Source of the DNA: Nanobdellota archaeon
Lineage (GTDB): Archaea > Nanobdellota > Nanobdellia > JAAOXT01
Length of the DNA: 64,000 bases
Direction: 5' to 3'
Assembly (NCBI GenBank): GCA_018221045.1
Contig: JAAOXT010000027.1
Span: 536-64,535 of the forward strand
In this document: in pieces, positions 6,772 to 63,973 of the stretch
Layout of the letters: every line of letters begins with the position of its first letter
How positions within the stretch are numbered: position 1 is the stretch's first letter
The notes under the pieces: generated by a model
What the model was told of the DNA's origin: nothing
What the model saw: the letters and a program-made list of their open reading frames with translations, nothing else
The model's database searches: none
Translations under genes and position numbers: made by a program

Positions 6772-6772
6772 A

Positions 6773-23100: not shown

Positions 23101-23147
23101 TGATATATATTTTAAATATTCGGGGTAATATAAATATTGTTTTGGAA

Positions 23148-23765: not shown

Positions 23766-23806
23766 AACAACAAATAATAAAAAGAGAAAATCGTCTTATT
23801 CATCTT

Positions 23807-24109: not shown

Positions 24110-24115
24110 CAAAAA

Positions 24116-39414: not shown

Positions 39415-39817
39415 ACACTATCACCTCGTCAACACTTTTCGCAGTGCCAGAAGGATTGATAAAAAAATCGTGCTCAGTCATAGAAGAATTGGTGAAACCC
39501 GTTGTTTGAACGTTGCAGATAAAAGATTTGTCGTCCAAACCGATGACGACCACAGATTCACTAGGGTGCGCGTGATACGAGTAAGGAATCCCCCCTGAAT
39601 AATTGGGTAATGACAAGTTTTCTATCAGGTTATTGGATTTCATCAGCGAGTAAAAACTAGTTCTTAGTTCTTGGCAAGATATTTTTAAATTATCGCTTTT
39701 GGACATGTCGTTAAGCGAAGTGCTCCGCTGAAAAAATATTATGAGGACGGTTATGAGAATCATGATTAGGAAAGAGATTGTTGTGAAAAACTCGATGCTT
39801 AACTGCGCTTTTTTCAT
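39407..39817 (-). CDS. minor pilin-like protein (class III signal peptide), locus 2
   Basis: The N-terminus is MKKAQLSIEFFTTISFLIMILITVLIIFF. Confidence 0.65.
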   Translation of the reverse strand: MKKAQLSIEFFTTISFLIMILITVLIIFFQRSTSLNDMSKSDNLKISCQELRTSFYSLMKSNNLIENLSLPNYSGGIPYSYHAHPSESVVVIGLDDKSFICNVQTTGFTNSSMTEHDFFINPSGTAKSVDEVIVFE

Positions 39818-42642
39818 TCTATTCCAAAATCAACCTCAACCCATCTTGATTTTTTGTTATCAATCCACCAAGCGAATTTTGGGATTATCCTAAACCTCAT
39901 CCAACCAAAACCATTCATTCTATGAGCCGTGTCCGTAACATCAACTTCGTGCCAACCAGTTGAACTGTAAGTGTACTCCGTGAAACCAGTATTTGTTAGT
40001 ATGGTCTCTCCGTCAGAATTATAAGCATGAATCCTTATAGGGTAAGGCTCGTAATCGAACGAGTCCACCTTGAATTTTAAGATAACCTTGGAATACAAGC
40101 TCGGGTCAGCATCTAGCTTCACAACATAACCCTCATACTTATCGTAATCAAACAGTTTTATGTCCATCAATAATTGGTAAGCGCTTGCAGGAGTGTTAGG
40201 GTTGTCATCAGTAAAGTCAAGTGTTATGTTTTCCCAAGACTTCATGTCAGGGTCAGCAGTGCTTTTTCCATGCCCGTTAGTCTTAAAATAATACGCTCGG
40301 CTAACGTCAACATAAGTGTAACCCCCTCCACCCCCTGTACCAGAAATTACTGTAATGGTTTCGTTCTCGTGGAACTCGTCGGTTCCAGTATTGCCTGCCT
40401 GATCATTGGCGTGGCTGGTCACAAGAGTCCAGTTCCCGATGGCCAATAAATAAAGCTCTCCGCCATAAACCCCATCTCCTTCAGCCCCTGAGCAAGAATT
40501 CCCTGTGTCGGAAAGTATTTGGTTGTAAGTAGTGTCCAAGGGAGTGATTAATTCAGCCCAAACCATGCTGACGTTATAATTGTCTGAAACGCTGGCGTTT
40601 AAACAAATAGTTTGCCCTACCTCTGCATTACTCTGGTTCGTCGCGGTTGAGTTCACGATTGGAAGAACAGTGTCACAAGTAATGTTAACCCCTACGCTGA
40701 CGCTTCCTTCGTTCCCCGCCGAGTCGTTTGCATGAGCAGTGCTCCACTCATTGATGCCGGTCTCAGAGCAATAAAAACTCGTTGAGTAAGTGTTACCATA
40801 TTGTCCTGTTGAAGGAAGGGTTTGCCCGCCTATTTGGAACCAGGCTTGGTCCTTGTTGGCATCAATAACGTCGCAACTGATTTGGGAGAACTCGCCTTCG
40901 CGTAAGTATTCGTTGGTTAGAGTGCAGTTTTCCAGAACAGGGTTTTGCGTGTCAACCGTGAAGTGAACAGTGCTTCCAGTGTGATTAGTGTTGTTGTAAA
41001 CGTCCTTGCAGTAAACAGTTATGGAATGAGTTGCGTCCGACAGACCTGTCACGCTTGAATAAAAGTTGGTGTCGTTCTCCTGGTCCATGGTCACGTTTGT
41101 CGGTGACGCGAAGTCAACGTTGTAACCGCACCACGAACCTTTTTCGTTGAGGGTGGCGTTAATCCAGAACGAGTTTGAGGGGTAAGAAGCGTTCTTAGGG
41201 TAATCAATAGTTATTATGGGAGGAATGCTGTCTGTTCCTTCCACGCTGACCAATAAGTTAGCGTTCTCGAAACCAACGTTTTCCGAAGTGTCTTTGGCGT
41301 AAGAAGTGTTAACCATCCACGTCCCGTTAACGTTTAACAATACTTCTGCTCCGAACCAGTTATCCCCGTTGATTCCCGCGCACGCGCTCCCAGTATCAGT
41401 TAGCGTGACATTAATTGCTTGCATGTCAGGGTTCGTCACACTCACCCAGACAGAATCTATCTGGGTGTCGTCCGTGGCAGTCGCGTTCACGCACAATAAA
41501 CCACCAATTATTGCACTGGTTTTATCCACGCTCGTCGAGTTAATGACGGGTAGCACGGTGTCGTCCCCGACGGTTATGCTCAACGAATGATTGTAAGAAT
41601 TGGTGCCTGCAACGTCTGGCTGGGAGTCCCCGAGGATTAACCCGTTAAAAGTTCCGTAAGAGAGACCGAACAGTCTTAAAGTCAAATCCTGACTTCTTCC
41701 AGAAACCATTATTCCTAAGTCAATAAAATCCTCTTTTTCAATCGTTGAAGCGTTAAGGTCAACGTAGCCGATGAGTTCATTGCTCAACGAGAGATTGGTG
41801 TTGAACAACGAGCCAGCTCCAACGTTTGAAACTGTTAATGACATGGTTTTGTTCGTGTTTATGGCAACGTTCACGTTTTCTAAACTCGAGATAGTGAGTT
41901 CTCCCACGCTCACGGTTAACTTGACTGGGATCGTGGTGTTAGCCATGCCAAAACCTTTCAGCGAGAGGTTGCCTTCGTAAACTGCTGGGTAATCATCCCC
42001 ATAAAAAGTTATTACTAAATTCTTGCTCTCACCGACTCCTAAGTCACCAATGTTCGTGTTGTCCTGCCTGCCAGATTCGTCTGAGTCAACGTCAACGCGG
42101 TTGATGAGGGTTCCGGTCGCGTTGACAGTTATCCCTGTTATCGTGGCTTCCTGCAAATTGGTTAATTGAAAATTTTGAGTGAAATTTTTTGAATAATCCA
42201 CTAAAGCGTTGAGGGATTGAGGAATTACCGCGATGTTAGCCACGTCTATGTCCACGCACCCGTTTTCCAAAGCCTTGATTATAATCCTATAATATCCTGG
42301 GTCTACTGGCACGGTTCCTTCAAGGCAGGTGGCCGTGTCCGCGAAAACGTCTGTCGTCCTGTCACCAAAATTGATGGCATAATTAACAGTGCTGCCGTTA
42401 AGATAAGTTCCTGAGGAGTTGATTAGTTTAGGGATTAAAACCAGTATTTCTCTTTGCGCTGGGTGCCCGTCAGCGTAAACAGTGTTGATAGCGTTCTCTA
42501 ATTTATCAACAGTCATCTGAATTTCTCTTAAGTTAGTTGTTTTTTGACTTCTGTCTGACGCGAAATAGAATAGGGGTGTGACTACGAGCAGGAAAAAAGA
42601 TATTAGTACTAAGTACTCCATTCCCACTTGAGCTCGTCTCAT
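39814..42642 (-). CDS. pilin-led giant surface protein: class III signal peptide, conserved N-module, Ig-like repeats and a C-terminal beta-sandwich
   Basis: The N-terminus is MRRAQVGMEYLVLISFFLLVVTP. Residues 1 to approx. 245 align with the 723-aa protein of locus 1. Two approx. 105-aa internal repeats begin VLPVINSTSVDK and VLPIVNSTATNQ. A Gly5 linker precedes a approx. 170-aa C-terminal domain. Confidence 0.8.
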   Translation of the reverse strand: MRRAQVGMEYLVLISFFLLVVTPLFYFASDRSQKTTNLREIQMTVDKLENAINTVYADGHPAQREILVLIPKLINSSGTYLNGSTVNYAINFGDRTTDVFADTATCLEGTVPVDPGYYRIIIKALENGCVDIDVANIAVIPQSLNALVDYSKNFTQNFQLTNLQEATITGITVNATGTLINRVDVDSDESGRQDNTNIGDLGVGESKNLVITFYGDDYPAVYEGNLSLKGFGMANTTIPVKLTVSVGELTISSLENVNVAINTNKTMSLTVSNVGAGSLFNTNLSLSNELIGYVDLNASTIEKEDFIDLGIMVSGRSQDLTLRLFGLSYGTFNGLILGDSQPDVAGTNSYNHSLSITVGDDTVLPVINSTSVDKTSAIIGGLLCVNATATDDTQIDSVWVSVTNPDMQAINVTLTDTGSACAGINGDNWFGAEVLLNVNGTWMVNTSYAKDTSENVGFENANLLVSVEGTDSIPPIITIDYPKNASYPSNSFWINATLNEKGSWCGYNVDFASPTNVTMDQENDTNFYSSVTGLSDATHSITVYCKDVYNNTNHTGSTVHFTVDTQNPVLENCTLTNEYLREGEFSQISCDVIDANKDQAWFQIGGQTLPSTGQYGNTYSTSFYCSETGINEWSTAHANDSAGNEGSVSVGVNITCDTVLPIVNSTATNQSNAEVGQTICLNASVSDNYNVSMVWAELITPLDTTYNQILSDTGNSCSGAEGDGVYGGELYLLAIGNWTLVTSHANDQAGNTGTDEFHENETITVISGTGGGGGYTYVDVSRAYYFKTNGHGKSTADPDMKSWENITLDFTDDNPNTPASAYQLLMDIKLFDYDKYEGYVVKLDADPSLYSKVILKFKVDSFDYEPYPIRIHAYNSDGETILTNTGFTEYTYSSTGWHEVDVTDTAHRMNGFGWMRFRIIPKFAWWIDNKKSRWVEVDFGIE

Positions 42643-53812: not shown

Positions 53813-54409
53813 ATGAATATTGATACTCTATTTGAAAAAGCAAAAAAATGTAAGTTATGCTATAAAAATATTTCAATTTATGTTCCTTTGCCTGATCCGA
53901 AGAACGGAAAAAAAGATGTATCGATAATGTTCGTAAATGAAAGACCTGGTAGGGTTGGAACGGGAGATTCGGGTTACGTTTCGTTTGATAATGATGACCC
54001 GTCTGCCAATCTTTTCAAAGAATGTTTTTTTCAATTAGGAATTTCAAGAAAGAAAATTTTTATTACGAATGCTTGCATTTGCCACCCAAAATTTGAAGGG
54101 TATAAAGACAAAGCTCCAAGTACCGAAGAAATAAGGAATTGTGGTTTCTGGCTGAAACGCCAAATTAGTATAACTCAACCTAAATTAATAGTTACGTTAG
54201 GGAATAACGCTTTGAAATCTATAAGATACATATTCCCTGAATCAAAGCAATTAAAAAATTTCAGGCTGAAACATAATATTGGGGAAATAATTAAAGAAAC
54301 AAAACCTTGGATTTATCCGTTGTATCATACTTCTATAAGAGCCCGGCGAACAAGGAATGTTCAACAACAAAAAAAGGACTGGTTAAACATCAAAAAAATT
54401 TCGGGTTAA
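53813..54409 (+). CDS. uracil-DNA glycosylase superfamily protein
   Basis: CKLC near the N-terminus, MFVNERPG, ITNACICHP and the C-terminal YHTS resemble family 4/5 UDG motifs. Confidence 0.6.
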   Translation: MNIDTLFEKAKKCKLCYKNISIYVPLPDPKNGKKDVSIMFVNERPGRVGTGDSGYVSFDNDDPSANLFKECFFQLGISRKKIFITNACICHPKFEGYKDKAPSTEEIRNCGFWLKRQISITQPKLIVTLGNNALKSIRYIFPESKQLKNFRLKHNIGEIIKETKPWIYPLYHTSIRARRTRNVQQQKKDWLNIKKISG

Positions 54410-54435: not shown

Positions 54436-55308
54436 TTAGTATCTTGGTTGGGCTACAATGCTTATTTGAGGTGAGTCCGTGCAATACCTGTAAACAACGA
54501 AAGCGTTCAGTCTTCCTGAAGCCTCGTCAAAATCGTCCAGTGGAGCCACGTTAAAAACCGCTTTTAAACTCTTATCAGTCCCGCTTATCAGTTTAACATC
54601 AGTAGTAGTGCAAGTGAACTCGTCAACCCCTTCCACGCAGTCAAAGTGGGGTTGCTCCACCTCTTCCATGTTAATTCTTCCACCCATCTTAGGAATGGTT
54701 AGCACGACTGTTTTCACGTACTCGGGAGCACCATAATAAGAATCGCTGATCGTGTCGTTGCCCACAAAACCTTTAACCTTGTCATTATGAACGTTGATTT
54801 TTAGGAAAGCATTCTCTTTCTCGTCGTAAAGACGATTAACCTCAAATGACATGTCAACCACTCCCCTGTTAGTGCCTGACAGCATTTCAGGAACTTCGCC
54901 GTTCCAGTTATTGCCTGCCACGAACACGTCTTGATAAGAAATGGTTCTGTAAACGTAGCACAACCTCATTTTAGGCATGTACGAGCCCCTGACAGCAAGG
55001 TCTTCAGGGATTTGCATGACCCAGCTGAACTCTGCGTCCTCTTCAGGGTGCAGTTTGCTAACAGTTTTTTTCATGCCTCCAGTGACTTTAAGGTCAGCGG
55101 TGTTAAGAATCTCGCCATAAATTTTTTCTGCAACAACGTCGCCTTGATTGGTTATTTTGGCGTTAATGGTTAACTCGTCACCCGGCCTTAACAAGGCCGA
55201 ATCCGCTTCAAAAGAGTCTATGATAATTCCTTTTCCTTTTGGTTGTTCTCCAACGCAACCTAACAGGATAATCATTGTCAGAAAAACGATTATTGGTAGG
55301 GCTTTCAT
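54436..55308 (-). CDS. lipobox surface protein, scaffold paralogue D (290 aa)
   Basis: The signal peptide MKALPIIVFLTMIILLGC has a lipobox. It is clearly paralogous to 55352-56392 (QIPEDLAV..CYVY, ..VYRYC.. C-terminus). Confidence 0.6.
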   Translation of the reverse strand: MKALPIIVFLTMIILLGCVGEQPKGKGIIIDSFEADSALLRPGDELTINAKITNQGDVVAEKIYGEILNTADLKVTGGMKKTVSKLHPEEDAEFSWVMQIPEDLAVRGSYMPKMRLCYVYRTISYQDVFVAGNNWNGEVPEMLSGTNRGVVDMSFEVNRLYDEKENAFLKINVHNDKVKGFVGNDTISDSYYGAPEYVKTVVLTIPKMGGRINMEEVEQPHFDCVEGVDEFTCTTTDVKLISGTDKSLKAVFNVAPLDDFDEASGRLNAFVVYRYCTDSPQISIVAQPRY

Positions 55309-55351
55309 TCTAATAATGATAATCAGTGTAATCGCTCTTTTATAAAAGTTT

Positions 55352-56392
55352 TCAGTCAGGTTCAGCAGTGATGGTCAGGGCGGGGCTTTGCACGCAGTAC
55401 CTGTAATCAATTATTGCTCTTATTCTTCCGCTGACCTCGCTGTCACTTCTTCCGGGGTTGGTGTTGAAGAATATTTTGAGGCTTCTCTCCAAGCCGACCA
55501 TCATTCTAACGTTTTTCGCAGTGCAAACGACTTGCGCGCCGGGCTTCACTACTCCTTGATTAAACTCTTCCAGCACTGTTTCGTCACTGCTTTGAATCTC
55601 GCAGCTGAAGTCCGCTTGCTGAATGCCTGGCTCGTTGAATTTCTTATCATACCCCGTGAAATTGATTATGGTTCGGGTTTCCGGCTCTCCTGTCGCGTTT
55701 AAGAACTCTTCAGTCAGCCCAGTTATTATCAGGGTTACTTTGGTTATGAGGTTCTCGTTTCCGTAATTGTAAACACTGATATCGTTTATCTTGTTCGTGT
55801 TGTTCGCCACGAAACCGTTTTCAATATTGGTTATAGTTACTTCAAATGATTGGTCCTGCTTTTCCCCTTTGTAAGGTTCTTTGGTTTCAAAACCCACTTT
55901 TAACGGCGCCCGGCTAGAACCTTTAACCAGCACGGGTATATCTTGATTCCATCTTGTGCCAACAAATAACACGTCAGAGTAAGCTGTTGAGTTGTAAACG
56001 TAACAGACTCTGGCAAAAGGGTAGTAATTATTGTACACTGCTAGGTCTTCAGGCACTTGAAAGTCCCAAACTATTTCGTCCTTGTCAAAAACGTCAAGGT
56101 TGGGTGACGTGGTCGTCTGACGCAAGGGGGTAAGGTTTATCAATTCCCCGTAAGCGTAGACTTCTGAGAAGACTTGCCTTGCCTGCAGGTTCCCAACGTT
56201 TTGGACTGTGAGAACGAATGTTAGCTCGTCTTTGGGTTCAGCGTGGGTTTGCGTGGTGGTGAAATTCAGTATTGCCACCCCGTTCCCGAGGACAACTTCT
56301 TCTCCGCTCCTCGTCGTTTCGGTTTGCGTGCATCCAGCCATAACCACACTAGTTAAAATGATGAGTGTTGTTAGCAAAACTTTTTTTTTCAT
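55352..56392 (-). CDS. lipobox surface protein, scaffold paralogue C (346 aa)
   Basis: The signal peptide is MKKKVLLTTLIILTSVVMAGC. The blocks PKDELTFVLTVQNVGN, QVPEDLAVYNNYYPFARVCYVYNSTAYSDVLFVG and the C-terminal GRIRAIIDYRYC are present. Confidence 0.6.
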   Translation of the reverse strand: MKKKVLLTTLIILTSVVMAGCTQTETTRSGEEVVLGNGVAILNFTTTQTHAEPKDELTFVLTVQNVGNLQARQVFSEVYAYGELINLTPLRQTTTSPNLDVFDKDEIVWDFQVPEDLAVYNNYYPFARVCYVYNSTAYSDVLFVGTRWNQDIPVLVKGSSRAPLKVGFETKEPYKGEKQDQSFEVTITNIENGFVANNTNKINDISVYNYGNENLITKVTLIITGLTEEFLNATGEPETRTIINFTGYDKKFNEPGIQQADFSCEIQSSDETVLEEFNQGVVKPGAQVVCTAKNVRMMVGLERSLKIFFNTNPGRSDSEVSGRIRAIIDYRYCVQSPALTITAEPD

Positions 56393-59300
56393 ATTAGGTT
56401 AGGCGGGACCACGCTTACGCTCGTGTCACCGCTAATAACATAAGTGTAGTAAATCTTAATATTAAAAGTGTACGTTTTTTGAGGGATCTTGTTGAACTGA
56501 AGGCTTCTCATCTCGCTGCCAGGGTCAGTCGCGTTCCCAAAAGTGAATGGAAGTATGAATATTCTTCCTCCAGCAAGTCTTTCAGGAGATATTATCTGGC
56601 TAACCGAGTTAGTGCCTAATTGAGTTGTCATCTCCACTCCTTGCCGCTGGCACGTGCACGCACCGTAGGAAATGCATTTATCGCTGAAAAGGTCGGAGCC
56701 TTCTGGGCAAGTGCAACTACTAGTGACTGCTTCACATTTTCCAAGATAACATATCATTCCTTTACCGCACATTTCAAAGTCGGTCGCGTCATCTACTAGG
56801 CCGTTGCAGTCATCGTCCAAACCGTTGCATTTTTCATAAGTCAAGGCGTCGCACACACTCCATTGAGCGTTAACGCATTGTTGTTCTCCGCTAACGCACG
56901 ACCCAACAGTGTAGTCCTGGCAAGCCCTGCTTATTGGTTCCCCTTCCATCCCGTCAACCATTCCATCCCCTTCATTGTCCACTCCATCGCAAAGACTTTC
57001 CTGACCCCAAGCTTCCGCCCTCCCTCCGGCGAGCTCGTCTTCCCCATCAGTTAAACCGTTCCAATCGTCGTCAAAACCGTTGTCCAGTAAGTCCTGGCAA
57101 TTCCAGTTTTCACAACCAATTCCTGTGACTCCGGCGAGTTCTAAGGGGTTGCAAACACCGTCGTTGCAAAGCCCTGGCGCGCAATAACTTGTTGAGCAAT
57201 AACCCCTGCTGTCAACGCCAACATAGCACCTGTGACCATTCTCGTCGCGAGAACAGGTTTGATCGCAGTCCCCGCCAGCACTGATTATTGTTGTTACGTC
57301 ACTGCAAGTGTAATAAGTAATTTCCGAAAGGGTTGTGCGGGCAACGTTCCCGTCACAGTTCGGCGCGTTTAATATTTCTTGTCCAATATCATAAGCTATT
57401 TGATTTAACGGGTTTCCAGGTTCTTCCACTGGACCGCAAGTGTTCGTTGCCTCCCCGCAACCCAATCCCGAGTCGCAGCACCACTTGTCAACTCCTGAAC
57501 CGCACGTTTCTTCACTTTCATAACAAAAAGATCCTGAGGTTTTGCAGGAGAGCGCTTCGTCCCCGCAAACCATTGTTCTTGACTCGTAAGTGTTAGAACA
57601 ACACCACTCTCCTCCTTCAATGGAGCAATGGTTCTCGTCTTGAGCGCACACAGTGGCCACGCAACTATTAATGGACGTGGATGAGAACGTGACGTAACCA
57701 GTTTCTCCTTCTAAGACGTGCACTGCCTTCACGCCTGAATAAGCGGACGCGGTGTCAAAGTAGATGCCTATTGAGTCCACGTGCAAGTAACCCGATGGAG
57801 GAGTGTAATCGTTTGTTAGCACCCAGTTGACTGTTTCAGGACTTGATAAGTAGTCTGCGTAAGTTGTCGTGGTTTCAGGGTAATAATATTTGATTGTTCC
57901 TTCACTGTTCTTCGCCTTTAACTCTAAGTAGTCGTTAACCACGAAAACCAGTTCTCCCAGGTTTTGGGCTGGAGAAGTTATGGTAAGCCCTTTGGATATT
58001 AACGATAATGAGTAATCCCCTAGGTTCGCGCTAGTGATTTCTGAACCACCGCTTTCGTACATGCTTATCAAATGGTTCGTCCAACTCGTCGGACAGTAAT
58101 TTTTGGTTGTTGACTCGCCTGTAAAGAAGCCGTTCCCAGATTTGTCAACCGCGCTTAGTGCTTTGCCGTTTTGGTTAATGCATGGCGTCGCGGTCTTCCC
58201 GTCAGTCACGCCCCAAATGTTTACGCCGAGGTCAGGGTCTTCCTCTCCATCGTCGTCTTGCACGTAGAAAGGGTCTGAAGGAGTTAATGAAAGAAGAGTT
58301 GGGGTGGTTGGTGGAGTAATTGGACCTGTGTACTCTACTTCTCCGAGAGGATGAATGTCTAAAAAGAGGGTGTGAGATATTAGTGGAGTCCAGCGAAGGA
58401 TTGTTGAATCCAGTGTTATTCCTCCTCTTAAGTAAACACCGTTCTCGCACGCGCCAGTCATTAAATCAACAATTCTTCCTCCGCAACAACCGGGTTCAAT
58501 CATTGTTTGGTAATAATCTTTAAGGTCTACAAAATTGTTTCCACAACAAATGAAGTCAGGGCTTGTCACGTAGCGCGGCGTATCATCGCAACAAATGAAG
58601 GTTTCTCCACTCCCAGCGCTTTCAACGAATCTTCCTCCGCAACATTCTTTTTCTTGAGCGTCACTAGCGGTGAAAAGGTTTCCGTCGCAGCAAGCGTACA
58701 TTTGAGTGAGGTACTGTGTTGTCTTGCAGCAAGCACTTCCTTCTGGGACGGGACTGCAATCAGTTGAGCATGAGCAAAAGTTTTCTCCTGGCTCGCACAG
58801 GAAGTTGCCGCATTCCTGCAGGCTTCCCCCTTTGGTTTCAATGCATTGTCCTTGCACGAACGCGTCAGCGTTAATAACTCCTTTCGTCCAACCATATTTT
58901 TCTAAGCCATCTTCTGAGAGATCAAGTTCTTGGGGATAAGTTACCACGACTATTGCCTGTTTTTTTCCAATGTATCCTTCTCCAATGTTTTGCACGCTGA
59001 AAACATAATTATATTTGGGACTGTTACCTGAATCAGGGAATAGGATTGGTTGACTGGTTTCAGGGTGGATGCCGACCTCGCTGTTGGACTCGCTGGAAGT
59101 CCCTGATATCTTCCATTGCTCGCCACTTCTCTTTTTTCTTTGCACTTCGCTTTGGCTTAGTGCTATAACGTTTTGTGTCGCGCTCGTCGAGTAATCATAA
59201 TTTACGGAGTAGCTTATTCTATGGTCGTAAGGAAGGTTGTTTATCATGACATCTATAGGTGCTTGCAATAACCATAAGACGTCAAGCTCGTCGTCAGCTA

Positions 59301-60357
59301 GTAATTTGTTCATCGCTCTTTGCGAGTAAGTAACTGTTGGGTCCATGTCGTAGAATCCTTCACACCATTCAATTGATGATTCGGTTGTTTTCACTTCCTG
59401 GTCTCTACCTGACCCGAACCCGCAGGCACAGTTTGTAGGGCAGTCGTCGCTGATGATTAATGCTGTGGAAGATTCTGAACCGTAAAACCTGCAATCGCAA
59501 GTGTATTGGCTCACGCTTGAAGCGTCAAGCGTGTCTGTCGCACAATAATAACTGTTCTCTGAACAAGGGGTTATTCCATCATACCAAGGATAGTATGATT
59601 GACTTATTGTTTCTCCGCCAATGTTGACGCACGAGTTGGATTCGCCGCAAGTAACTCCTGAACTCTTGTCAGAGCAGCACCATGAATTGCACGTGGTAGA
59701 GTCCGGACCGCAGGAAGGGGTGTAGCAGTAAAACTGTATTCTTCCAGTTTCTTCTACTGGAACGTATTGATAGTTTTCAGGACATTTTTGAACAAAGTAT
59801 TGTTCGTTAGGGTGTTGTAAAGCTAGTTGCGCGAGGTTAGGGTCGTTCCTGAACTGGTCCATTATCATGCCAATGTAGGAGGGGTCGCTGCTGTGAGGCC
59901 TGCAAATGCCTGACATGACATCAGCGTAGCTTGAGCCGGTTATTGATTGGCAAACGTATTCGCCGTCAACAAGTTTTAGAGAATAGCCTGAAGGGCATGA
60001 GCGAGGGTTTCCTTCGGTCTCGCAGTCCAAGGTAGACGGGTTGTAATCGTTGTTAGGGCATTGTGCTCGGTAAGTGTTAGGCTCGTACGCGCCCCCGCAT
60101 TCCACTATCTTGAAAGGGGCGACGTTGTCCAGTGATACCACAATGTTTTTCGCGTCGTCTCCGAGAGCGTTATTCCTGATTACGAGTTCAACGTATTCTT
60201 GACCTGCTGGCAGTAGGGTGGTGGTTCCTACCCTGAATTCTAAGGCCCCGACTCCTTCGTTTGATTTTAGCTTAGACTCTGTTTTTGATGGACCCGTTGC
60301 GGTGCAGCCAGCTAGAATGATGATAAGTGATAAAGTGAGCCAAGTTTTTTGGTTCAT
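56389..60357 (-). CDS. 1322-aa Cys-rich lipobox surface protein, scaffold paralogue B with large insertions
   Basis: The signal peptide is MNQKTWLTLSLIIILAGC. I count about 83 Cys by hand. It has WCC modules, a CC-doublet array, acidic CxGxDxxxDG repeats and the scaffold C-terminus TFNIKIYYTYV. It overlaps each neighbour by 4 nt. Confidence 0.7.
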   Translation of the reverse strand: MNQKTWLTLSLIIILAGCTATGPSKTESKLKSNEGVGALEFRVGTTTLLPAGQEYVELVIRNNALGDDAKNIVVSLDNVAPFKIVECGGAYEPNTYRAQCPNNDYNPSTLDCETEGNPRSCPSGYSLKLVDGEYVCQSITGSSYADVMSGICRPHSSDPSYIGMIMDQFRNDPNLAQLALQHPNEQYFVQKCPENYQYVPVEETGRIQFYCYTPSCGPDSTTCNSWCCSDKSSGVTCGESNSCVNIGGETISQSYYPWYDGITPCSENSYYCATDTLDASSVSQYTCDCRFYGSESSTALIISDDCPTNCACGFGSGRDQEVKTTESSIEWCEGFYDMDPTVTYSQRAMNKLLADDELDVLWLLQAPIDVMINNLPYDHRISYSVNYDYSTSATQNVIALSQSEVQRKKRSGEQWKISGTSSESNSEVGIHPETSQPILFPDSGNSPKYNYVFSVQNIGEGYIGKKQAIVVVTYPQELDLSEDGLEKYGWTKGVINADAFVQGQCIETKGGSLQECGNFLCEPGENFCSCSTDCSPVPEGSACCKTTQYLTQMYACCDGNLFTASDAQEKECCGGRFVESAGSGETFICCDDTPRYVTSPDFICCGNNFVDLKDYYQTMIEPGCCGGRIVDLMTGACENGVYLRGGITLDSTILRWTPLISHTLFLDIHPLGEVEYTGPITPPTTPTLLSLTPSDPFYVQDDDGEEDPDLGVNIWGVTDGKTATPCINQNGKALSAVDKSGNGFFTGESTTKNYCPTSWTNHLISMYESGGSEITSANLGDYSLSLISKGLTITSPAQNLGELVFVVNDYLELKAKNSEGTIKYYYPETTTTYADYLSSPETVNWVLTNDYTPPSGYLHVDSIGIYFDTASAYSGVKAVHVLEGETGYVTFSSTSINSCVATVCAQDENHCSIEGGEWCCSNTYESRTMVCGDEALSCKTSGSFCYESEETCGSGVDKWCCDSGLGCGEATNTCGPVEEPGNPLNQIAYDIGQEILNAPNCDGNVARTTLSEITYYTCSDVTTIISAGGDCDQTCSRDENGHRCYVGVDSRGYCSTSYCAPGLCNDGVCNPLELAGVTGIGCENWNCQDLLDNGFDDDWNGLTDGEDELAGGRAEAWGQESLCDGVDNEGDGMVDGMEGEPISRACQDYTVGSCVSGEQQCVNAQWSVCDALTYEKCNGLDDDCNGLVDDATDFEMCGKGMICYLGKCEAVTSSCTCPEGSDLFSDKCISYGACTCQRQGVEMTTQLGTNSVSQIISPERLAGGRIFILPFTFGNATDPGSEMRSLQFNKIPQKTYTFNIKIYYTYVISGDTSVSVVPPNLI

Positions 60358-62729
60358 TGTTTCACCACCGTTCCTTGAGCGCTTCCTTTTTTGGTGTAAG
60401 TGTAGAAGACGTCGCCTCTTATCAGAAAGGTTTTTTCTTTTTCAGCTTTTAGAGGGTTTACGTATATTGGGAATCTGTACAGGCTTCCTTCTTCCACGCT
60501 GGGCAGTTGGCTTTCGCAAACCACGTATCCTAATTTAGATAAGGCGTCCAGGCTTTCTGTTAAGTATTCGTCTTCCACTTTATCAAGCAGTCCTGTTATC
60601 ACGAGCAGTTGGTCTTCCGTGTTCGCGGTTTGGTTGTAGCACTGGAATTCTTTAGTGCTCACCGGTTCTTCCGAGAATCTTTGGCATAGGAACCATCCTC
60701 CAACGCTTGTCCTCAGGCTGGGAGGGCAAGTGTCAGGCACTTCGTACGCATCGTACTTGTTTTCTTGTCTGACGATTCCTGAACCTGCTTCCTTGCACCC
60801 CGTGTCATAGCTTTCCGCGCACACGACCGTGTTCAGCGCTCCAGCGTCATCTAAATAACTGTTTTTGCAGCACCAAGTTTCGCTTCCACCCGTGCAGTAG
60901 TTTTCCTGCCCGGCCCTGCAAGCGTAGTAACCGCAGGGCTTGTCAATGCTTAATAAGTCCCAGCCCACGTCGTAGAGTTGTTGAGCGTTTAATTCGTAGA
61001 ACCCGGGCGCGCACGCCCCTTCGCAGCGCGTTCTGTCCTCGTTCAGCGTCATGCCGTCAGTCGTGCAGTAAGTCTGGTCGTTGATTCGGGTTGGGTCGGA
61101 TAATTCTTGAGGTACTGATAAGTATATCTTGTTCACCTGGTTGACGTAACCGCTTCCAGCGTTCACTATTCCCCAAGTGAATATGGACGTGCCTGTCGTG
61201 TCGAAGACGGGTTGTGTTCCGATGCTTTGACTGCTCAGAACTGTTCCGTAGGATACAGTGGTTTTTGGGTTGGAGAACTGCATGAGTCCCTGCTCCATTT
61301 TTTCTTTAGCGTACTTACTTTCTATAACTGTTATTGAGTAAAGGGTTCGAGTGTAGTATTCAGTGGTTGCTTCCGCGACAATGTTTACCGCGTCGCCTTC
61401 AAGGACTCCGATGACTTCGATGGTTTCGCAGTTTATTCTCGCGCTGGTTCCTTTTGGAATGTCTGTTACGCGGAGGTAATCATCCCATTTCCACACTGTT
61501 TCGGTGATGTTGTAACCAGTGGTTCTGCCCCTGCCTTTGCAGTCAAACAATACTTTTTGGCCTTCCACTCCTCCAGGAAGTATTTCTCCTGTGAAAGTGA
61601 CGTTCATTTCTTTGATGTCAGCATCCCCGTCATTTTTTATTTCTATCACCGCGCTGGTGCGATTCGTGAAAAGGTTTATCCTATCGGGCAGTAATTGTAC
61701 GCTGGTTACAGTGAAGCCCGTGTTGGGCGGCGCGCTCCCAATGTTTCCTATTAAGCTTCCTCCTGACCTGAAACTGGCTTGTTGTTGTAGCTCGTAGGCT
61801 TCAGGGTTGGTGAGAGGCATTAGAATAGTGTTGAAAGAATTGGCCAGGTTTTCGCTCATCCCTCTGCTCGCTCCTGCCATGACTCCGAAACTGCTTCTAA
61901 TCACTGGATTGGTTACAAGAAATGGCATCCAGATTATTGCGTAGAAAAATATGAAAGTTACTCCGAGCATCCATGTGTAGTTGAAGATTTCTGGGCTTAT
62001 GCTTTTTGCAGGGTAGTCAACCATGAGGAAGACTCCTATGAGCAGTCCTGCTTTTATGAGGTAGCTGAGGATGTTGTAGAAAGGACCGCCTTCTGGACCG
62101 AGTGGGGGGACTCCTGCTATTGCTTGGCTTGGAGACCACATGTTAAAAATCATTAAGTTGAAGAAGCCTTGTATTAAGTCTATACTAAATATAAATCCTA
62201 TAAGACGTATTATGAATAGGAATAGTACGATTATGTATATTGCTTTTCCCGCGTTTCCTTCGCTTTCTCCGCTATCCTTGGCTGTTATGTAGCTTATTAG
62301 CATGAGGATTATGGTTGGCACGTTTGCTAAGATTGCAATGATCATGTTGGAGCCTTCAAGGATTGCGCCAGCAGCCCCGCCTCCAGGTAGCATGAGGTTT
62401 CCCATGACCACGAAGGGAGCTATGAGTCCTAGGAATTTTAGTTCTCCGAAGAGTATTTTTGAGAGGGCTATCGCGAGAATGAGGGTTATCCAGGAGAAAA
62501 TCCATTCCATTCCTTGGAAGATGCCGCCTAAAGCGATGACAACCATTAAGATAATGATTGTTGCCAGGACTTGTGGCAGCCCGATATTGCCAATGTCTAA
62601 TCCTAGTTCATCACCACTTATTCCTATGTCCACCATTCCCCGCTTGTTTGTTTTAGGCCAACCCATTATATAGACGTTAAATAATTTGGAGCTGATTTGT
62701 TTTAAACTTTTTCTATCCAATAAGCGCAA
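60354..62729 (-). CDS. polytopic membrane protein fused to a scaffold ectodomain, paralogue A (791 aa)
   Basis: The first approx. 300 aa contain about 7-9 hydrophobic helices. The ectodomain has NRTSAVIEIKNDGDADIKEM, the Cys-rich block CGYYACRAGQENYCTGGSETWCCKNSY and the C-terminus GDVFYTYT. Confidence 0.65.
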   Translation of the reverse strand: MRLLDRKSLKQISSKLFNVYIMGWPKTNKRGMVDIGISGDELGLDIGNIGLPQVLATIIILMVVIALGGIFQGMEWIFSWITLILAIALSKILFGELKFLGLIAPFVVMGNLMLPGGGAAGAILEGSNMIIAILANVPTIILMLISYITAKDSGESEGNAGKAIYIIVLFLFIIRLIGFIFSIDLIQGFFNLMIFNMWSPSQAIAGVPPLGPEGGPFYNILSYLIKAGLLIGVFLMVDYPAKSISPEIFNYTWMLGVTFIFFYAIIWMPFLVTNPVIRSSFGVMAGASRGMSENLANSFNTILMPLTNPEAYELQQQASFRSGGSLIGNIGSAPPNTGFTVTSVQLLPDRINLFTNRTSAVIEIKNDGDADIKEMNVTFTGEILPGGVEGQKVLFDCKGRGRTTGYNITETVWKWDDYLRVTDIPKGTSARINCETIEVIGVLEGDAVNIVAEATTEYYTRTLYSITVIESKYAKEKMEQGLMQFSNPKTTVSYGTVLSSQSIGTQPVFDTTGTSIFTWGIVNAGSGYVNQVNKIYLSVPQELSDPTRINDQTYCTTDGMTLNEDRTRCEGACAPGFYELNAQQLYDVGWDLLSIDKPCGYYACRAGQENYCTGGSETWCCKNSYLDDAGALNTVVCAESYDTGCKEAGSGIVRQENKYDAYEVPDTCPPSLRTSVGGWFLCQRFSEEPVSTKEFQCYNQTANTEDQLLVITGLLDKVEDEYLTESLDALSKLGYVVCESQLPSVEEGSLYRFPIYVNPLKAEKEKTFLIRGDVFYTYTKKGSAQGTVVKQ

Positions 62730-62757
62730 TTAAAAAGAAAAAGATTAAGTGAATTTG

Positions 62758-63942
62758 TCAGTTCCAGTACATTCTCACGCTGTTCAAGTTAAATCTGCCT
62801 TCCTGACTCGTGATGGTTAACTTGTTCGACCCTAAATTTATCTCAGAACTTGGGAGAATGAACCTGTTGTAACCCCTGTTTATGGAGTCAGCTCTTTCGT
62901 ACTTCGTGACTTGTCTGAACACGAATTCTAAACCCCCGTTCGGAGCCATGTTAGCCAAATCGTACTCCACGGTAAAGTTGCTAGCTTTATCGACAACGTC
63001 TCCCGGAACGTTATAATAAATGTCGTAGCTTGAGACGCCCACGTCCTTTTCAAACAAGGAAAATTGCACGTCAGATAAATCATAAACGCCTCCAGGACTT
63101 GTTGAAAAACTTATGGTGTTAATACCTGTTGTCAACCCCGCTGAAGTGGTGCTGACTTCTGCTTGGTATCTCGCTTCTCTTTCAGAGGGCTTGCCATTGT
63201 AAATTAGGACGTCGTTCAGCCTGATAGACATGGTTCCACTTGTTTGAGCGTTCACGACTTTGAAATAAATTTTTGCTGTTCCGTCTACGACGCTTGATAA
63301 ACTGAATTCTCGAGCAACCTCGTTCACGTTCAGCGAGTACGCGTGCTCAACAATTTTGAAACTGTTAAGCCCGCAAACCTGTGTTTCCCAGAAAGCCATT
63401 CCTTTGAAAACGCATTCTATTCTTAAGGTATGCGTGCCTTCGTAAACATTGTTATCTAAGTCTAGGGAAACTATTTGCCCGTTCACTGCTGTTTCGGAAT
63501 AAATGTTCTTGCTGTCAACGAAAACGTTAATTGTTGGCGTCCCGATAACTGTTCCTGTTTTGAAACTAACAGTTATTCTTTCGAGGCCCGATTCATCAAA
63601 GTTCAAGCTTTTGGTGTAAGTGCCTGCGCTGAAAATGCTGGTTGTTAACCTTAGTTGGGGCATGCTCTCCAAATCTTTGCCGATTAAAGGGTAGTCAAGG
63701 CTGGCGGTGCCGAAATCATGAGTCATTAGGGGTTCTCCAGTGCCTTTACCAACCCATCCTATTCCTATGATGTGGAATAAGTCGTGCTCGCCTAAGGTAG
63801 CGTTGCCGTCCCCGCTTATCACTTCGTTTTCGGGGTTGAGTAGTCTTTGCCTTTCAGGGGGCTGAACCCAAATAATGTAGAACACGAAAAGGATTATGAA
63901 TAGGATTAACGCGACTGGAACCGCTATTTGACCCTTTTTCAT
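62758..63942 (-). CDS. class III (pilin-like) signal peptide protein with repeated beta-sandwich-like modules; first gene of the surface operon
   Basis: The N-terminus is MKKGQIAVPVALILFIILFVFYIIWV. Three loosely similar modules follow, each ending in ..G.N.L/I.I/F....G.F.L..V.. patterns. Confidence 0.6.
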   Translation of the reverse strand: MKKGQIAVPVALILFIILFVFYIIWVQPPERQRLLNPENEVISGDGNATLGEHDLFHIIGIGWVGKGTGEPLMTHDFGTASLDYPLIGKDLESMPQLRLTTSIFSAGTYTKSLNFDESGLERITVSFKTGTVIGTPTINVFVDSKNIYSETAVNGQIVSLDLDNNVYEGTHTLRIECVFKGMAFWETQVCGLNSFKIVEHAYSLNVNEVAREFSLSSVVDGTAKIYFKVVNAQTSGTMSIRLNDVLIYNGKPSEREARYQAEVSTTSAGLTTGINTISFSTSPGGVYDLSDVQFSLFEKDVGVSSYDIYYNVPGDVVDKASNFTVEYDLANMAPNGGLEFVFRQVTKYERADSINRGYNRFILPSSEINLGSNKLTITSQEGRFNLNSVRMYWN

Positions 63943-63965: not shown

Positions 63966-63973
63966 TTTATAAA
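63966..63973 (-). promoter_or_regulatory. TATA-box-like element (tttataaa) upstream of the surface operon
   Basis: The palindromic tttataaa is centred about 28 nt upstream of the ATG at 63942. Confidence 0.4.

What the first reader, a model, noticed from the sequence alone, without database searches (positions are those of the whole stretch)
54436..63942. Five-gene, translationally coupled cell-surface operon built from one unrecognised scaffold
Five co-directional minus-strand genes lie at 62758-63942, 60354-62729, 56389-60357, 55352-56392 and 54436-55308. A TATA-like box sits about 28 nt upstream of the first ATG. The junctions at 60354-60357 and 56389-56392 overlap by 4 nt, and the remaining gaps are 28-43 nt. 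This looks like a single transcription unit.

Gene 1 carries a type-IV-pilin-like class III leader (MKKGQIAVPVAL...). Gene 2 has about 7-9 TM helices followed by an ectodomain. Genes 3-5 begin with lipobox-type signal peptides (LAGC, MAGC, LLGC).

Genes 2-5 share one ectodomain scaffold. The N-terminal strand pattern is LRPGDELTINAKITNQGD / PKDELTFVLTVQNVGN / AGQEYVELVIRNNALGD / NRTSAVIEIKNDGD. A central PEDLAV...CYVY-type block follows. The C-terminal aromatic strand is VVYRYC / IDYRYC / IYYTYV / VFYTYT.

I see no ATPase, enzyme or transporter signature, and I cannot assign the scaffold to any family I know. The gene content reads as a dedicated multi-subunit envelope or contact structure: a membrane anchor, lipid-anchored paralogues and a pilin-processed subunit. 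In a host-dependent small archaeon it could be the attachment or S-layer-like apparatus.
Basis: partly seen in the sequence, partly recalled or inferred. Interest (0 to 1): 0.85.

Follow-up and report, generated by a model that had tools for sequence, protein, structure and literature searches.

The report
Conserved DPANN archaeal surface-protein operon
Five neighbouring genes in a tiny DPANN archaeon encode cell-surface proteins, four of them copies of one beta-sandwich design, and the same unannotated gene set sits at the same chromosomal spot in about ten very distant relatives, so it is probably a core envelope or contact complex whose job is still unknown.

Summary
Five minus-strand ORFs lie at the stated coordinates, with 4-nt overlaps at g2/g3 and g3/g4. 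The window comes from a MAG labelled Nanoarchaeota (DPANN).

The shared scaffold is real. g4 and g5 are full-length paralogues. g3 is the same family (hhalign 99.7%) carrying about 1,000 aa of cysteine-rich insertions. The g2 ectodomain is also related (96%, 242 collinear columns).

The scaffold is not a new fold. AlphaFold (pLDDT 88) gives two beta-sandwich domains, the first CARDB-like. The family itself has no Pfam, NCBIfam or PDB match above threshold. About 230 representative clusters exist, and about 90% of the listed ones carry a lipobox.

g1 is unrelated to the others. It has a [KR][GA]Q class-III-like leader in 8 of 9 orthologues and probably carries CBM-like jelly rolls.

The g1–g2–lipoprotein order recurs in eight other lineages. 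In four of them it lies between a Hel308-like helicase and PAC2/eIF2-alpha genes, although those neighbours are only 28–47% identical.

My best reading is a membrane-tethered heteromeric surface complex, structural or adhesive. Function is inferred, not shown. A single transcript is uncertain: the g1–g2 gap is probably 91 nt with oligo-T runs, and g5 has its own TATA-like box.

The parts
63966..63973 (-). TATA-like box (tttataaa) centred about 28 nt upstream of the g1 ATG. It lies in the 96-nt divergent intergenic region shared with a Hel308-like helicase gene, which is visible only in L001.
   Evidence: sequence reading only, promoter function not tested
62758..63942 (-). g1, 394 aa, pI 5.0. 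It has a class-III-like leader MKKGQ followed by a hydrophobic helix, then two modelled beta jelly-roll (CBM-like) domains (residues about 70-300) and a poorly modelled C-terminal region that carries a third G-x-N motif.
   Evidence: Pfam CBM-like PF14683 reached only E 0.018, below threshold
62667..62757 (-). g1-g2 intergenic region of 91 nt if g2 starts at ATG 62666. It contains a T5CT5 run 15-27 nt after the g1 stop, a possible archaeal oligo-T terminator or attenuator.
   Evidence: the start choice is supported by the L001 and L002 gene calls
60354..62666 (-). g2, 770 aa (the ORF extends to TTG 62729), pI 4.6. It has about 7-8 TM segments (residues about 30-256), then an ectodomain homologous to the g3-g5 scaffold, carrying one Cys-rich 'WCC' module.
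56389..60357 (-). g3, 1322 aa, 83 Cys, pI 4.2. It is a lipoprotein (LAGC) of the same scaffold: N-terminal part at residues 2-85, core at 345-471, C-terminal strand at about 1292-1319. The scaffold is interrupted by Cys-rich insertions at about 86-340 and about 490-1285. These hold six CC[GD]xx[FV] repeats, WCC modules and MopE-like C-x-D-x-D motifs. Orthologues elsewhere are only 360-416 aa.
55352..56392 (-). g4, 346 aa lipoprotein (MAGC). The AlphaFold model has two beta-sandwich domains; the first is CARDB-like.
55338..55347 (-). TATA-like box (ttttataaaa) about 34 nt upstream of the g5 ATG, inside the 43-nt g4-g5 gap. It is a possible internal promoter.
   Evidence: sequence reading only
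54436..55308 (-). g5, 290 aa lipoprotein (LLGC), a full-length paralogue of g4 (28% identity, E 8e-45).
54392..54398 (-). T7 run 38-44 nt downstream of the g5 stop, a possible oligo-T terminator. It lies inside the 3' end of the convergent UDG-like gene.
   Evidence: sequence reading only

Best explanation
The locus encodes an anciently conserved, membrane-tethered, heteromeric extracellular complex of a DPANN archaeon. The MAGs that carry it are labelled Nanoarchaeota, Woesearchaeota or Parvarchaeota.

Four subunits (g2, g3, g4, g5) are paralogues of one two-domain beta-sandwich module with a CARDB-like first domain.
- g2 is the integral-membrane version. It is the only subunit with cytoplasmic sequence, so it is the likely base.
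- g3, g4 and g5 are held at the membrane by an N-terminal lipid-modified cysteine.

g1 is unrelated. It is held by a prepilin-type N-terminal helix and probably presents CBM-like jelly-roll domains, which suggests a glycan-binding role.

In the window's own lineage, g2 and above all g3 have been decorated with disulfide-rich insertions that would project outward.

The complex most likely serves as a structural envelope or cell-contact (adhesion) module, not as an enzyme or transporter.

Shown: the gene anatomy, the paralogy, the fold class, the anchor motifs, the conserved order and the conserved position.
Inferred: that the subunits form one complex, that they sit on the surface, that g1 binds glycan, and any role in the envelope or in host contact.
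For: Paralogy and fold.
- g4/g5 are paralogues at E 8e-45.
- g3-type vs the g4/5 family gives probability 99.7%.
- The g2 ectodomain vs the g4/5 family gives probability 96.2% over 242 columns.
- The AlphaFold model of g4 has pLDDT 88 and pTM 0.83 and is all-beta.
- Foldseek returns only generic tandem Ig-like matches: integrin calf/thigh, complement MG, CNA adhesin, RbmA and TRAP-beta.

Anchors.
- Lipobox Gly-Cys is at least 90% conserved and present in 125 of 137 representatives.
- Lipoproteins and the lipidation enzyme AliA are reported as prevalent in DPANN (PMC12462473).
- The g1 leader [KRHN][GA]Q is present in 8 of 9 orthologues. It matches the [KR]AQ leaders of the window's own pilin-like proteins.

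Surface location.
- All five proteins have pI 4.2-5.0, like the other secreted proteins of the window. Cytoplasmic proteins there have pI 9-10.
- A DsbA-like oxidoreductase is encoded in the window, which suits an 83-Cys exoprotein.

Conservation.
- The order g1, g2, then 2-4 scaffold lipoproteins is seen in L001, L003, L007/8, L009, L012 and L013. L002, L004 and L011 are cut by contig ends.
- In L001, L007, L009 and L013 the operon lies between a Hel308-like helicase and the PAC2/eIF2-alpha/S27e/GINS/primase block.
- Those housekeeping neighbours are only 28-47% identical to the window's. The operon proteins are 21-40% identical.
- The 4-nt overlaps at g2/g3 and g3/g4 recur in L009 and L013, and g2/first-lipoprotein overlaps by 4 nt in L012.
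- There is always one g1, one g2 and, where the type could be assigned, one g3-type gene, plus 2-3 g4/5-type genes. That fits fixed positions in one assembly.

No enzyme or transporter signature was found in Pfam, NCBIfam, PHROGs, PADLOC or PDB sequence searches.
Against: - No direct evidence of physical interaction was obtained; no multimer modelling was possible.
- There are no expression or localisation data.
- The g1 model is poor (pLDDT 60, pTM 0.37), so its CBM-like assignment rests on low-TM Foldseek matches and sub-threshold Pfam hits.
- g1 lacks the Glu at +5 that the window's bona fide pilins have, and it does not match Pfam Class_IIIsignal.
- One orthologue (L003) lacks the G/A-Q motif.
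- In one lineage (L014/L015), g1-g2 is followed by small pilin-like proteins instead of scaffold lipoproteins. The five-family set is therefore not invariant.
- Internal T-runs and TATA-like boxes mean the genes may not be co-transcribed in the window.
Confidence: 0.5

Rival explanations
1. The proteins are the S-layer proper. The lipid-anchored Ig-like paralogues tile into the 2-D lattice that encloses the cell, with g2 as the membrane stalk.
For: - Solved archaeal S-layer proteins are arrays of Ig-like beta-sandwich domains, some of them lipid-anchored (my own knowledge of the Haloferax csg and Nitrosopumilus SLP structures).
- The products are acidic.
- The operon is deeply conserved, has a fixed position and looks single-copy. 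No other family members occur in the 64-kb window.
- g5 gives a weak hit to NF033506 'putative S-layer protein' (E 0.0068).
Against: - The subunits are small (about 30-38 kDa), and four or five different ones would be unusual for an S-layer.
- No match to any S-layer family reaches threshold.
- N-glycosylation sequons are sparse.
- There are no abundance data.
- The NF033506 hit covers only the CARDB-like stretch.
Confidence: 0.15
2. The operon is an accessory module of a type-IV-filament (TFF) system. g1 would be a prepilin-processed adhesin or a bindosome-like binding protein that is handled by one of the genome's TFF machineries. g2-g5 would form its docking platform.
For: - The [KR][GA]Q leader of g1 is conserved.
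- The window holds two TFF loci, at 19122-28287 and 33681-42642. Each has an ATPase, split platform genes and large class-III-signal proteins.
- In L014/L015, g1-g2 is followed by three or four proteins with KKG[IS]-type leaders.
- DPANN TFF systems with two platform proteins, and widespread class-III-signal binding proteins, are described in 10.64898/2026.04.22.720090.
Against: - No TFF ATPase, platform or peptidase gene is adjacent to the operon in any of the loci examined.
- g1 lacks Glu+5 and gets no Class_IIIsignal hit.
- The lipoprotein paralogues have no known role in TFF systems.
Confidence: 0.12
3. The operon is a glycan- or nutrient-capture surface complex, analogous to Bacteroides surface glycan-binding lipoproteins. 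Its beta-sandwich and CBM-like domains would hold polymers at the cell surface.
For: - The g1 model matches CBM22, CBM51, BcsB and SGBP-B-type jelly rolls.
- NEW3 and CARDB hits occur among family members.
- Lipoproteins built from tandem Ig-like or CBM domains are the architecture of SusE/F-type proteins (my own knowledge).
Against: - No glycoside hydrolase, transporter or solute-binding family is in or next to the operon in any locus.
- The g1 model has low confidence.
- Position next to informational genes is conserved, whereas catabolic loci are usually variable.
Confidence: 0.1
4. The lipoprotein paralogues polymerise into a filament by beta-strand exchange, as in Bacteroidia type V pili or archaeal 'threads'. 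g2 would be the anchor and g1 the tip.
For: - The operon encodes several paralogous lipoproteins of about 300-350 aa with two beta-sandwich domains.
- Each has a conserved C-terminal aromatic strand: Y-x-Y in 118 of 137 representatives and in g2-g5.
- One paralogue is membrane-anchored.
- The resemblance to the Mfa/Fim operon logic comes from my own knowledge.
Against: - FimA, Mfa and thread subunits are not among the top 50 Foldseek PDB matches.
- There are no Pfam hits to those families.
- AlphaFold folds the C-terminal strand back into its own domain at pLDDT above 90.
- No maturation protease is encoded nearby.
Confidence: 0.05
5. The five are independent surface proteins that stay adjacent through duplication history and shared regulation. 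They do not form a complex.
For: - g4/5-type genes have duplicated independently in several lineages. Paralogues within a genome are often closer to each other than to those of other genomes.
- Copy number varies from 2 to 4.
Against: - Order and overlaps are conserved at 21-40% identity across genomes whose housekeeping neighbours are 28-47% identical.
- Distinct g2-type and g3-type orthologue lines are maintained.
Confidence: 0.08

Closest known systems
CARDB / DUF11 / NEW3 (NPCBM_assoc) Ig-like domains of prokaryotic cell-surface proteins (Pfam PF07705, PF01345, PF10633)
   Same: The first domain of g3-g5 has the same beta-sandwich class and the 'x-N-x-G' strand pattern. CARDB is hit at E<=0.01 by 10 of 60 family members, DUF11 by 5 and NEW3 by 3. 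Giant repeat proteins in the database match only this stretch.
   Different: The window proteins score below the Pfam gathering thresholds (16.1 and 14.8 bits against 22.7). The family adds a second, larger beta-sandwich domain with conserved CYxY and YxYC strands, an invariant lipobox, and a fixed operon context. None of these is part of those Pfam families.
Archaeal lipobox lipoproteins (AliA/AliB pathway, PMC12462473)
   Same: g3, g4 and g5 have a signal peptide followed by [LVI][ASTVI][GAS]C, and the motif is conserved across the family. DPANN are reported to be rich in predicted lipoproteins and to carry AliA.
   Different: Lipidation has not been demonstrated for any DPANN protein. No AliA or AliB gene was sought in this genome beyond the window. 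The characterised archaeal lipoproteins are mostly solute-binding proteins, not beta-sandwich paralogue sets.
Archaeal class III signal peptide (type IV pilin-like) proteins, including bindosome-type binding proteins
   Same: g1 has a short basic N-terminus, [KR][GA] followed by Q at +1, and a hydrophobic helix. The window's own TFF-locus proteins are built the same way.
   Different: g1 has no Glu at +5 and no Pfam Class_IIIsignal match. It is 394 aa with jelly-roll domains, and it is never adjacent to a TFF ATPase or platform gene in the loci seen.
Bacteroidia type V pilus operons (FimA-E, Mfa1-5)
   Same: Both are operons of several paralogous lipoproteins, each with two beta-sandwich domains, in which one member acts as a membrane anchor. 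This resemblance of logic is drawn from my own knowledge.
   Different: There is no sequence or Foldseek match. The organism is an archaeon with a single membrane. No maturation protease is present, and polymerisation is untested.
Archaeal S-layer proteins built of Ig-like domains (e.g. Haloferax csg, Nitrosopumilus SLP; Sulfolobus SlaA/SlaB two-component layers)
   Same: Both are acidic, all-beta, membrane-tethered extracellular proteins, and some S-layers also have more than one subunit type.
   Different: No homology was detected. The subunits here are much smaller and come in four or five different kinds. Lattice formation is unknown.

Membership tests
CARDB (PF07705) | Sequence match to the Pfam model at or above the gathering score (22.7 bits) | tested here: not met
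   g4 scores 16.1 bits (E 0.013) and g5 14.8 bits (E 0.035). Ten of 60 homologues match at E<=0.01, the best at 2e-5. The domain is therefore CARDB-like, but the window proteins are not callable members.
CARDB (PF07705) | Seven-stranded Ig-like beta-sandwich fold | tested here: met
   In the AlphaFold model of g4, residues about 38-135 are all-beta at pLDDT 90-97. Foldseek matches TRAP-beta and other Ig-like domains, with probability 1.0 and TM 0.47-0.50 on the target.
Prokaryotic lipoproteins (lipobox) | Signal peptide ending in [LVI][ASTVI][GAS]-C | tested here: met
   g3 has LAGC, g4 MAGC and g5 LLGC. G20 and C21 are at least 90% conserved in 60 sequences, and 125 of 137 representatives carry the motif.
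Prokaryotic lipoproteins (lipobox) | Actual lipid modification of the Cys, and presence of the modifying enzymes (AliA/AliB in archaea) | not testable with these tools
   This needs biochemistry or the whole genome. The only support is the literature statement that AliA occurs in DPANN (PMC12462473).
Class III signal peptide / type IV pilin-like proteins | [KR][GA] cleavage motif directly before an N-terminal hydrophobic helix | tested here: met
   g1 begins MKKGQ-IAVPVALILFIILFVFYII. The motif is found in 8 of 9 orthologues. The pilin-like proteins of the window's TFF loci use the same K/R-A/G-Q pattern.
Class III signal peptide / type IV pilin-like proteins | Match to Pfam Class_IIIsignal (PF04021), and the conserved acidic residue at +5 | tested here: not met
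   g1 gave no PF04021 hit at E<=1, whereas the window's 723-aa FG-GAP protein scores 23.5 bits. Position +5 of g1 is Pro, and no orthologue has Glu there.
Class III signal peptide / type IV pilin-like proteins | Genomic association with a TFF ATPase, platform protein and prepilin peptidase; cleavage by that peptidase | tested here: inconclusive
   Two TFF loci lie 20-40 kb away in the same window, but none is adjacent to the operon in any locus. No peptidase A24 was found among the roughly 35 window ORFs scanned. Cleavage itself is not testable here.
Carbohydrate-binding modules (g1) | Sequence match to a CBM family above threshold | tested here: not met
   PF14683 CBM-like scores 15.4 bits against a cut-off of 27. 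The same family is precomputed as a faint hit for orthologue P0004. A PDB profile search gave only legume lectins at E 0.13.
Carbohydrate-binding modules (g1) | Beta jelly-roll fold | tested here: inconclusive
   The model has pLDDT 59.8 overall and 70-89 for residues 70-300. Foldseek gives CBM22, CBM51, BcsB and Cry/Vip3 CBM-like matches at probability 1.0 but TM about 0.2.
Archaeal S-layer proteins | Homology to a described S-layer family | tested here: not met
   No Pfam or NCBIfam S-layer model reaches threshold. NF033506 scores only 15.1 bits against a cut-off of 110. There are no PDB sequence matches.
Archaeal S-layer proteins | Forms a 2-D lattice and is among the most abundant proteins | not testable with these tools
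   This needs cryo-ET, proteomics or transcriptomics.
Type V pilins (FimA/Mfa) | Sequence or structural homology to FimA/Mfa families | tested here: not met
   There are no Pfam hits in the window proteins or in 60 homologues. These families are absent from the top 50 Foldseek PDB matches.

The most novel reading that the evidence does not exclude
The operon could encode a previously undescribed multi-subunit surface machine that defines a large DPANN clade (Woesearchaeota/Nanoarchaeota-labelled lineages). In this reading, a TM-anchored paralogue nucleates an ordered assembly of lipid-anchored paralogues, either a lattice or a short strand-exchanged fibre. A prepilin-processed, glycan-binding g1 caps the assembly. 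The whole would be the organism's principal envelope and host-contact apparatus. Lineage-specific disulfide-rich insertions in g3 and g2 would then set host or substrate specificity.
Probability: 0.2. Interest if true: 0.75.

Novelty: new variant of a known kind. Interest (0 to 1): 0.5.

Why it matters
Most DPANN archaea are uncultured. They are thought to live attached to hosts, yet for the Woesearchaeota/Nanoarchaeota-type lineages no envelope or attachment proteins have been identified.

This work defines four unannotated protein families: g1, g2-type, g3-type and g4/5-type. About 230 representative clusters were found for the g4/5 profile. The families form one operon with a conserved order. 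In several lineages it has the same chromosomal neighbours, across genomes whose informational proteins are only 28-47% identical.

That degree of conservation is unusual for surface proteins. It marks the operon as a core feature of the clade rather than a variable adhesin island.

It gives concrete targets for cryo-ET density fitting, surface proteomics, antibody or FISH-based cell capture, and multimer modelling. It also supplies a set of candidate substrates for the newly described archaeal lipoprotein pathway in DPANN.

Tried and rejected
- Word-indexed homologue searches with g4 and g1 alone found almost nothing: 1 and 3 hits. The family only appeared with the exhaustive profile search.
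- Shallow profiles (A1, 3 sequences) failed to link g2 or the bulk of g3 to g4/g5. Deeper alignments were needed.
The g1 alignment found only 3 genome loci.
The 7-sequence substitute gave a weak model.
- PDB sequence searches for all families returned nothing usable.
- A Foldseek search of viral structures returned only generic DUF11-like repeats, so a viral, fusogen or capsid origin was rejected.
- PHROGs and PADLOC gave no hits, so phage or defence readings were rejected.
- Rfam and tRNA scans of the window were empty.
- GC3 of the operon genes (0.47-0.53) is like that of neighbouring genes. The higher GC of 56-62 kb is therefore compositional (Gly/Cys/Ala/Pro-rich), and a foreign origin was rejected.
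- A conserved g2 juxtamembrane motif (PxTNPxxYxxQQQ) holds only in three orthologues, so it was dropped.
- Literature searches found no description of this cluster.

Full report
**1. Observation**

The five minus-strand ORFs exist exactly as described:

| Gene | Coordinates | Length |
|---|---|---|
| g1 | 62758-63942 | 394 aa |
| g2 | 60354-62729 | 791 aa from a TTG |
| g3 | 56389-60357 | 1322 aa, 83 Cys |
| g4 | 55352-56392 | 346 aa |
| g5 | 54436-55308 | 290 aa |

- The g2/g3 and g3/g4 junctions overlap by 4 nt.
- A tttataaa box at 63966-63973 is centred about 28 nt before the g1 ATG.
- g2 more probably starts at ATG 62666 (770 aa). This is the start used in the gene call of the 98%-identical contig L001, and it is matched by the N-terminus of the 67%-identical L002 orthologue.
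- The g1-g2 gap is then 91 nt, and it contains a T5CT5 run just after the g1 stop.
- The 43-nt g4-g5 gap contains ttttataaaa about 34 nt before the g5 ATG.
- A T7 run follows g5.
- Tight coupling is therefore clear for g2-g3-g4. A single transcript for all five genes is not established.

**2. Organism**

- g1 is 100% identical to GOU97_04625 of a MAG labelled 'Nanoarchaeota archaeon'.
- A 74-kb contig labelled 'Candidatus Parvarchaeota archaeon Meg19_1012_Bin_507' carries the same five genes at 96-98% identity.
- The neighbouring genes are archaeal informational genes: S27e, L44e, eIF2-alpha, GINS, primase and PAC2.
- This is a DPANN archaeon.

**3. No known family**

- Pfam and NCBIfam give nothing above threshold for any of the five proteins.
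- The only leads are sub-threshold: CARDB and NEW3 at the N-termini of g4 and g5, CBM-like PF14683 for g1, and MopE for g3.
- PHROGs, PADLOC and PDB sequence searches are empty.

**4. The shared scaffold**

- g4 and g5 are full-length paralogues (28% identity, E 8e-45).
- An exhaustive profile search with g4 and g5 found 230 representative clusters at E<=1e-3, and 47 at E<=1e-10. Most are proteins of about 300-360 aa matched from residue 1.
- Of the 137 listed representatives of 1000 aa or less, the median length is 319 aa, and 125 carry a lipobox-like motif in the first 40 residues.
- In a 60-sequence alignment, the lipobox Gly-Cys, N65, Y133 (the CYxY strand), P163, G193, C264 and Y330 (the YxYC strand) are at least 90% conserved.
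- Window g3 scores 71 bits against this profile, in two collinear pieces: residues 2-85 and 345-471.
- The g3 orthologues in other genomes are only 360-416 aa. They align with the g4/5 family at hhalign probability 99.7%, E 2e-26, over 274 columns.
- Window g3 is therefore the same module carrying two large cysteine-rich insertions, at about residues 86-340 and 490-1285. These contain six CC[GD]xx[FV] repeats, 'WCC' modules and MopE-like motifs.
- One WCC module also sits in g2.
- The g2 link was weak with shallow data. With eight orthologous ectodomains it reached probability 96.2%, E 2e-9, over 242 collinear columns. Single g2 orthologues score 21-33 bits against the g4/5 profile.
- g1 is unrelated to the others.

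**5. Fold**

- AlphaFold2 on g4 with the 60-sequence alignment gives pLDDT 88 and pTM 0.83. The model is all-beta and has two domains joined by long strands at 126-144 and 319-335.
- Foldseek against PDB returns only generic tandem Ig-like proteins: integrin alpha calf/thigh, complement MG domains, CNA-type adhesins, RbmA, TRAP-beta and transglutaminase barrels. Whole-chain TM scores are low.
- The viral library gives DUF11-type repeats.
- Among 60 family members, CARDB is hit by 10, DUF11 by 5 and NEW3 by 3.
- The scaffold is thus a familiar fold class with a CARDB-like first domain, within an unannotated family.
- The g1 model is weak (pLDDT 60). Residues 70-300 form two jelly-roll-like sandwiches at pLDDT 70-89.
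- Its Foldseek matches are carbohydrate-binding jelly rolls: BcsB, tandem CBM22, CBM51, Cry/Vip3 CBM-like domains and galactose-binding domains. This agrees with the faint PF14683 hits, but it is only suggestive.

**6. Anchors**

- g3, g4 and g5 have lipoboxes (see section 4). DPANN are reported to be rich in predicted lipoproteins and to possess AliA (PMC12462473).
- g2 has about 7-8 hydrophobic segments in the window and in L002.
- Its orthologues have one such segment (L004, L007, L009) or about 3-5 (L003, L011, L012).
- The multi-pass block is therefore a variable anchor, not a conserved transporter or enzyme.
- g1 begins MKKGQ followed by a hydrophobic helix. The [KRHN][GA]Q motif recurs in 8 of 9 orthologues that are otherwise 17-30% identical.
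- The window itself contains two type-IV-filament loci, at 19122-28287 and 33681-42642. Each has an ATPase and two T2SSF platform genes.
- Those loci also encode several proteins whose leaders read K/R-A-Q...E(+5). One of them is a 723-aa FG-GAP protein that matches Pfam Class_IIIsignal.
- g1 fits the local cleavage motif. It lacks the +5 Glu and gives no PF04021 hit.
- Processing by the prepilin peptidase is therefore plausible, while incorporation into a filament is doubtful.
- All five products are acidic (pI 4.2-5.0), like the other secreted proteins of the window. Cytoplasmic proteins there have pI 9-10.
- A DsbA-like protein is encoded at 6713-7498.

**7. Conservation**

| Locus | Source or label | Content |
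|---|---|---|
| L003 | Logan | Pelota, g1, g2, 2 lipoproteins, then UDG/PAC2/eIF2-alpha |
| L004 | GCA_964628775.1 | Contig end, g2, g3-type, 3 g4/5-type lipoproteins |
| L007/L008 | Logan / JGI | Helicase, g1, g2, g3-type, 2 lipoproteins |
| L009 | GCA_053534095.1 | Helicase, g1, g2, g3-type, 2 lipoproteins |
| L012 | Woesearchaeota BS150m-G63 | g1, g2, 3 lipoproteins |
| L013 | Nanoarchaeota GON13 | Helicase, g1, g2, g3-type, 2 lipoproteins |
| L002, L011 | partial contigs | L002: g1, g2 and the start of g3; L011: g1 and g2, then the contig ends |

- In L001, L007, L009 and L013 the operon lies between a divergent Hel308-like helicase and the PAC2/eIF2-alpha/S27e/L44e/GINS/primase block.
- The window's housekeeping neighbours are only 28-47% identical to their counterparts in L003, L004, L007 and L009. 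The operon proteins are 21-40% identical.
- The operon is therefore ancient in this clade and evolves only slightly faster than informational genes.
- The 4-nt overlaps at g2/g3 and g3/g4 recur in L009 and L013. In L012, g2 and the first lipoprotein gene overlap by 4 nt.
- In the loci where coordinates were compared (the window, L007, L009, L013), the last lipoprotein gene is preceded by a gap.
- g4/5-type genes have duplicated independently in different lineages.
- There is one exception. In L014/L015, g1-g2 is followed by small proteins with KKG[IS]-type leaders rather than by scaffold lipoproteins.
- No further members of the four families occur elsewhere in the 64-kb window.

**8. Interpretation**

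- The best-supported reading is a membrane-tethered heteromeric extracellular complex.
- g2, the integral-membrane paralogue, is the only subunit with cytoplasmic sequence, so it is the likely base.
- g3, g4 and g5 are lipid-anchored paralogues that would occupy distinct positions.
- g1 is held by a prepilin-type helix and would add probable glycan-binding jelly rolls.
- Lineage-specific disulfide-rich insertions project from g3 and g2.
- The anatomy, paralogy, fold class, anchor motifs and conservation are shown.
- Complex formation, surface exposure, glycan binding and an envelope or contact role are inferred.
- The rivals, with their confidences, are:
  - a true S-layer (0.15);
  - a TFF-dependent adhesin or bindosome-like module (0.12);
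  - a glycan-capture complex (0.10);
  - independent adjacent surface proteins (0.08);
  - a type-V-pilus-like strand-exchange filament (0.05).

**9. Novelty and score**

- The fold classes and anchor types are known, so this is not categorically new.
- The families are unannotated in Pfam, NCBIfam and PDB. I found no paper that describes the cluster.
- A positionally conserved operon that combines three anchor types around one paralogous scaffold is a new variant of archaeal surface-protein organisation.
- It gives a concrete, testable candidate for the unknown envelope or attachment apparatus of a large uncultured DPANN clade.
- Interest: 0.5.

Noticed in passing
window 19122-28287 (-): This is a type-IV-filament locus. 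It holds two T2SSF platform genes (19122-20102, 20095-20946), a T2SSE ATPase (20939-22450) and a 241-aa ORF with no Pfam hit. Four proteins with class-III-like leaders follow (24116-24883, 24874-25266, 25739-26116, 26116-28287). The last is a 723-aa FG-GAP beta-propeller that scores 23.5 bits on Pfam Class_IIIsignal. A KaiC-like ATPase lies next door at 28375-29217 (+).
   Followed up: partly
window 32867-42642 (-): This is a second type-IV-filament locus. It holds a KaiC-like ATPase (32867-33547), two T2SSF genes (33681-34712, 34663-35553) and a 624-aa T2SSE ATPase (35550-37424). Proteins with pilin-like leaders follow (37680-38516, 39407-39817). A 942-aa acidic protein (39814-42642) begins MRRAQVGMEYL and has no Pfam match at all.
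   Followed up: partly
window 5842-10505 (+): An HMA-domain protein (5842-6771), a DsbA/thioredoxin-like protein (6713-7498) and a CopA-type P-type ATPase (8334-10505) lie together. The DsbA-like gene could provide the extracytoplasmic disulfide formation that the 83-Cys g3 would need.
   Followed up: no
window, all genes sampled: The proteins sampled show a sharp charge split. Predicted secreted or surface proteins have pI 4.2-5.0, while cytoplasmic and membrane-machinery proteins have pI 8.9-10.3.
   Followed up: partly
L014 11357-18532 and L015 (same coordinates): In this lineage, g1 and g2 orthologues are followed by 144-, 180-, 223- and 845-aa proteins. The latter three begin with KKG[IS]/KKS plus a hydrophobic stretch, like pilins. 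No scaffold lipoproteins follow. This hints at a link between the g1-g2 pair and pilin-like proteins.
   Followed up: partly
window 56389-60357 (g3 residues about 540-630 and 900-1250) and g2 residue 598: g3 contains six regularly spaced CC[GD]xx[FV] repeats, three 'WCC' modules and MopE-like C-x-D-x-D-C-D/N-G motifs. One WCC module is shared with g2. The first insertion is also present in the 70%-identical L002 fragment, but it is absent from the 360-416-aa orthologues.
   Followed up: partly
window 53813-54409 (+): The family-4 UDG-like gene convergent with g5 has much lower GC3 (0.28) than its neighbours (0.43-0.53). In L004, L007, L009 and L013, the gene next to the last lipoprotein gene is instead a 409-418-aa MJ0043_C-domain protein.
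   Followed up: no
P0010; L011: Two family-bearing records carry non-DPANN labels: 'Candidatus Freyarchaeota archaeon' for P0010 and 'uncultured Methanosarcinales archaeon' for contig CAZTMQ010000007.1. These may be mis-binned contigs or real occurrences outside DPANN. This was not resolved.
   Followed up: no
window 1-64000: No tRNA gene and no Rfam family at gathering score was found anywhere in the 64 kb.
   Followed up: no
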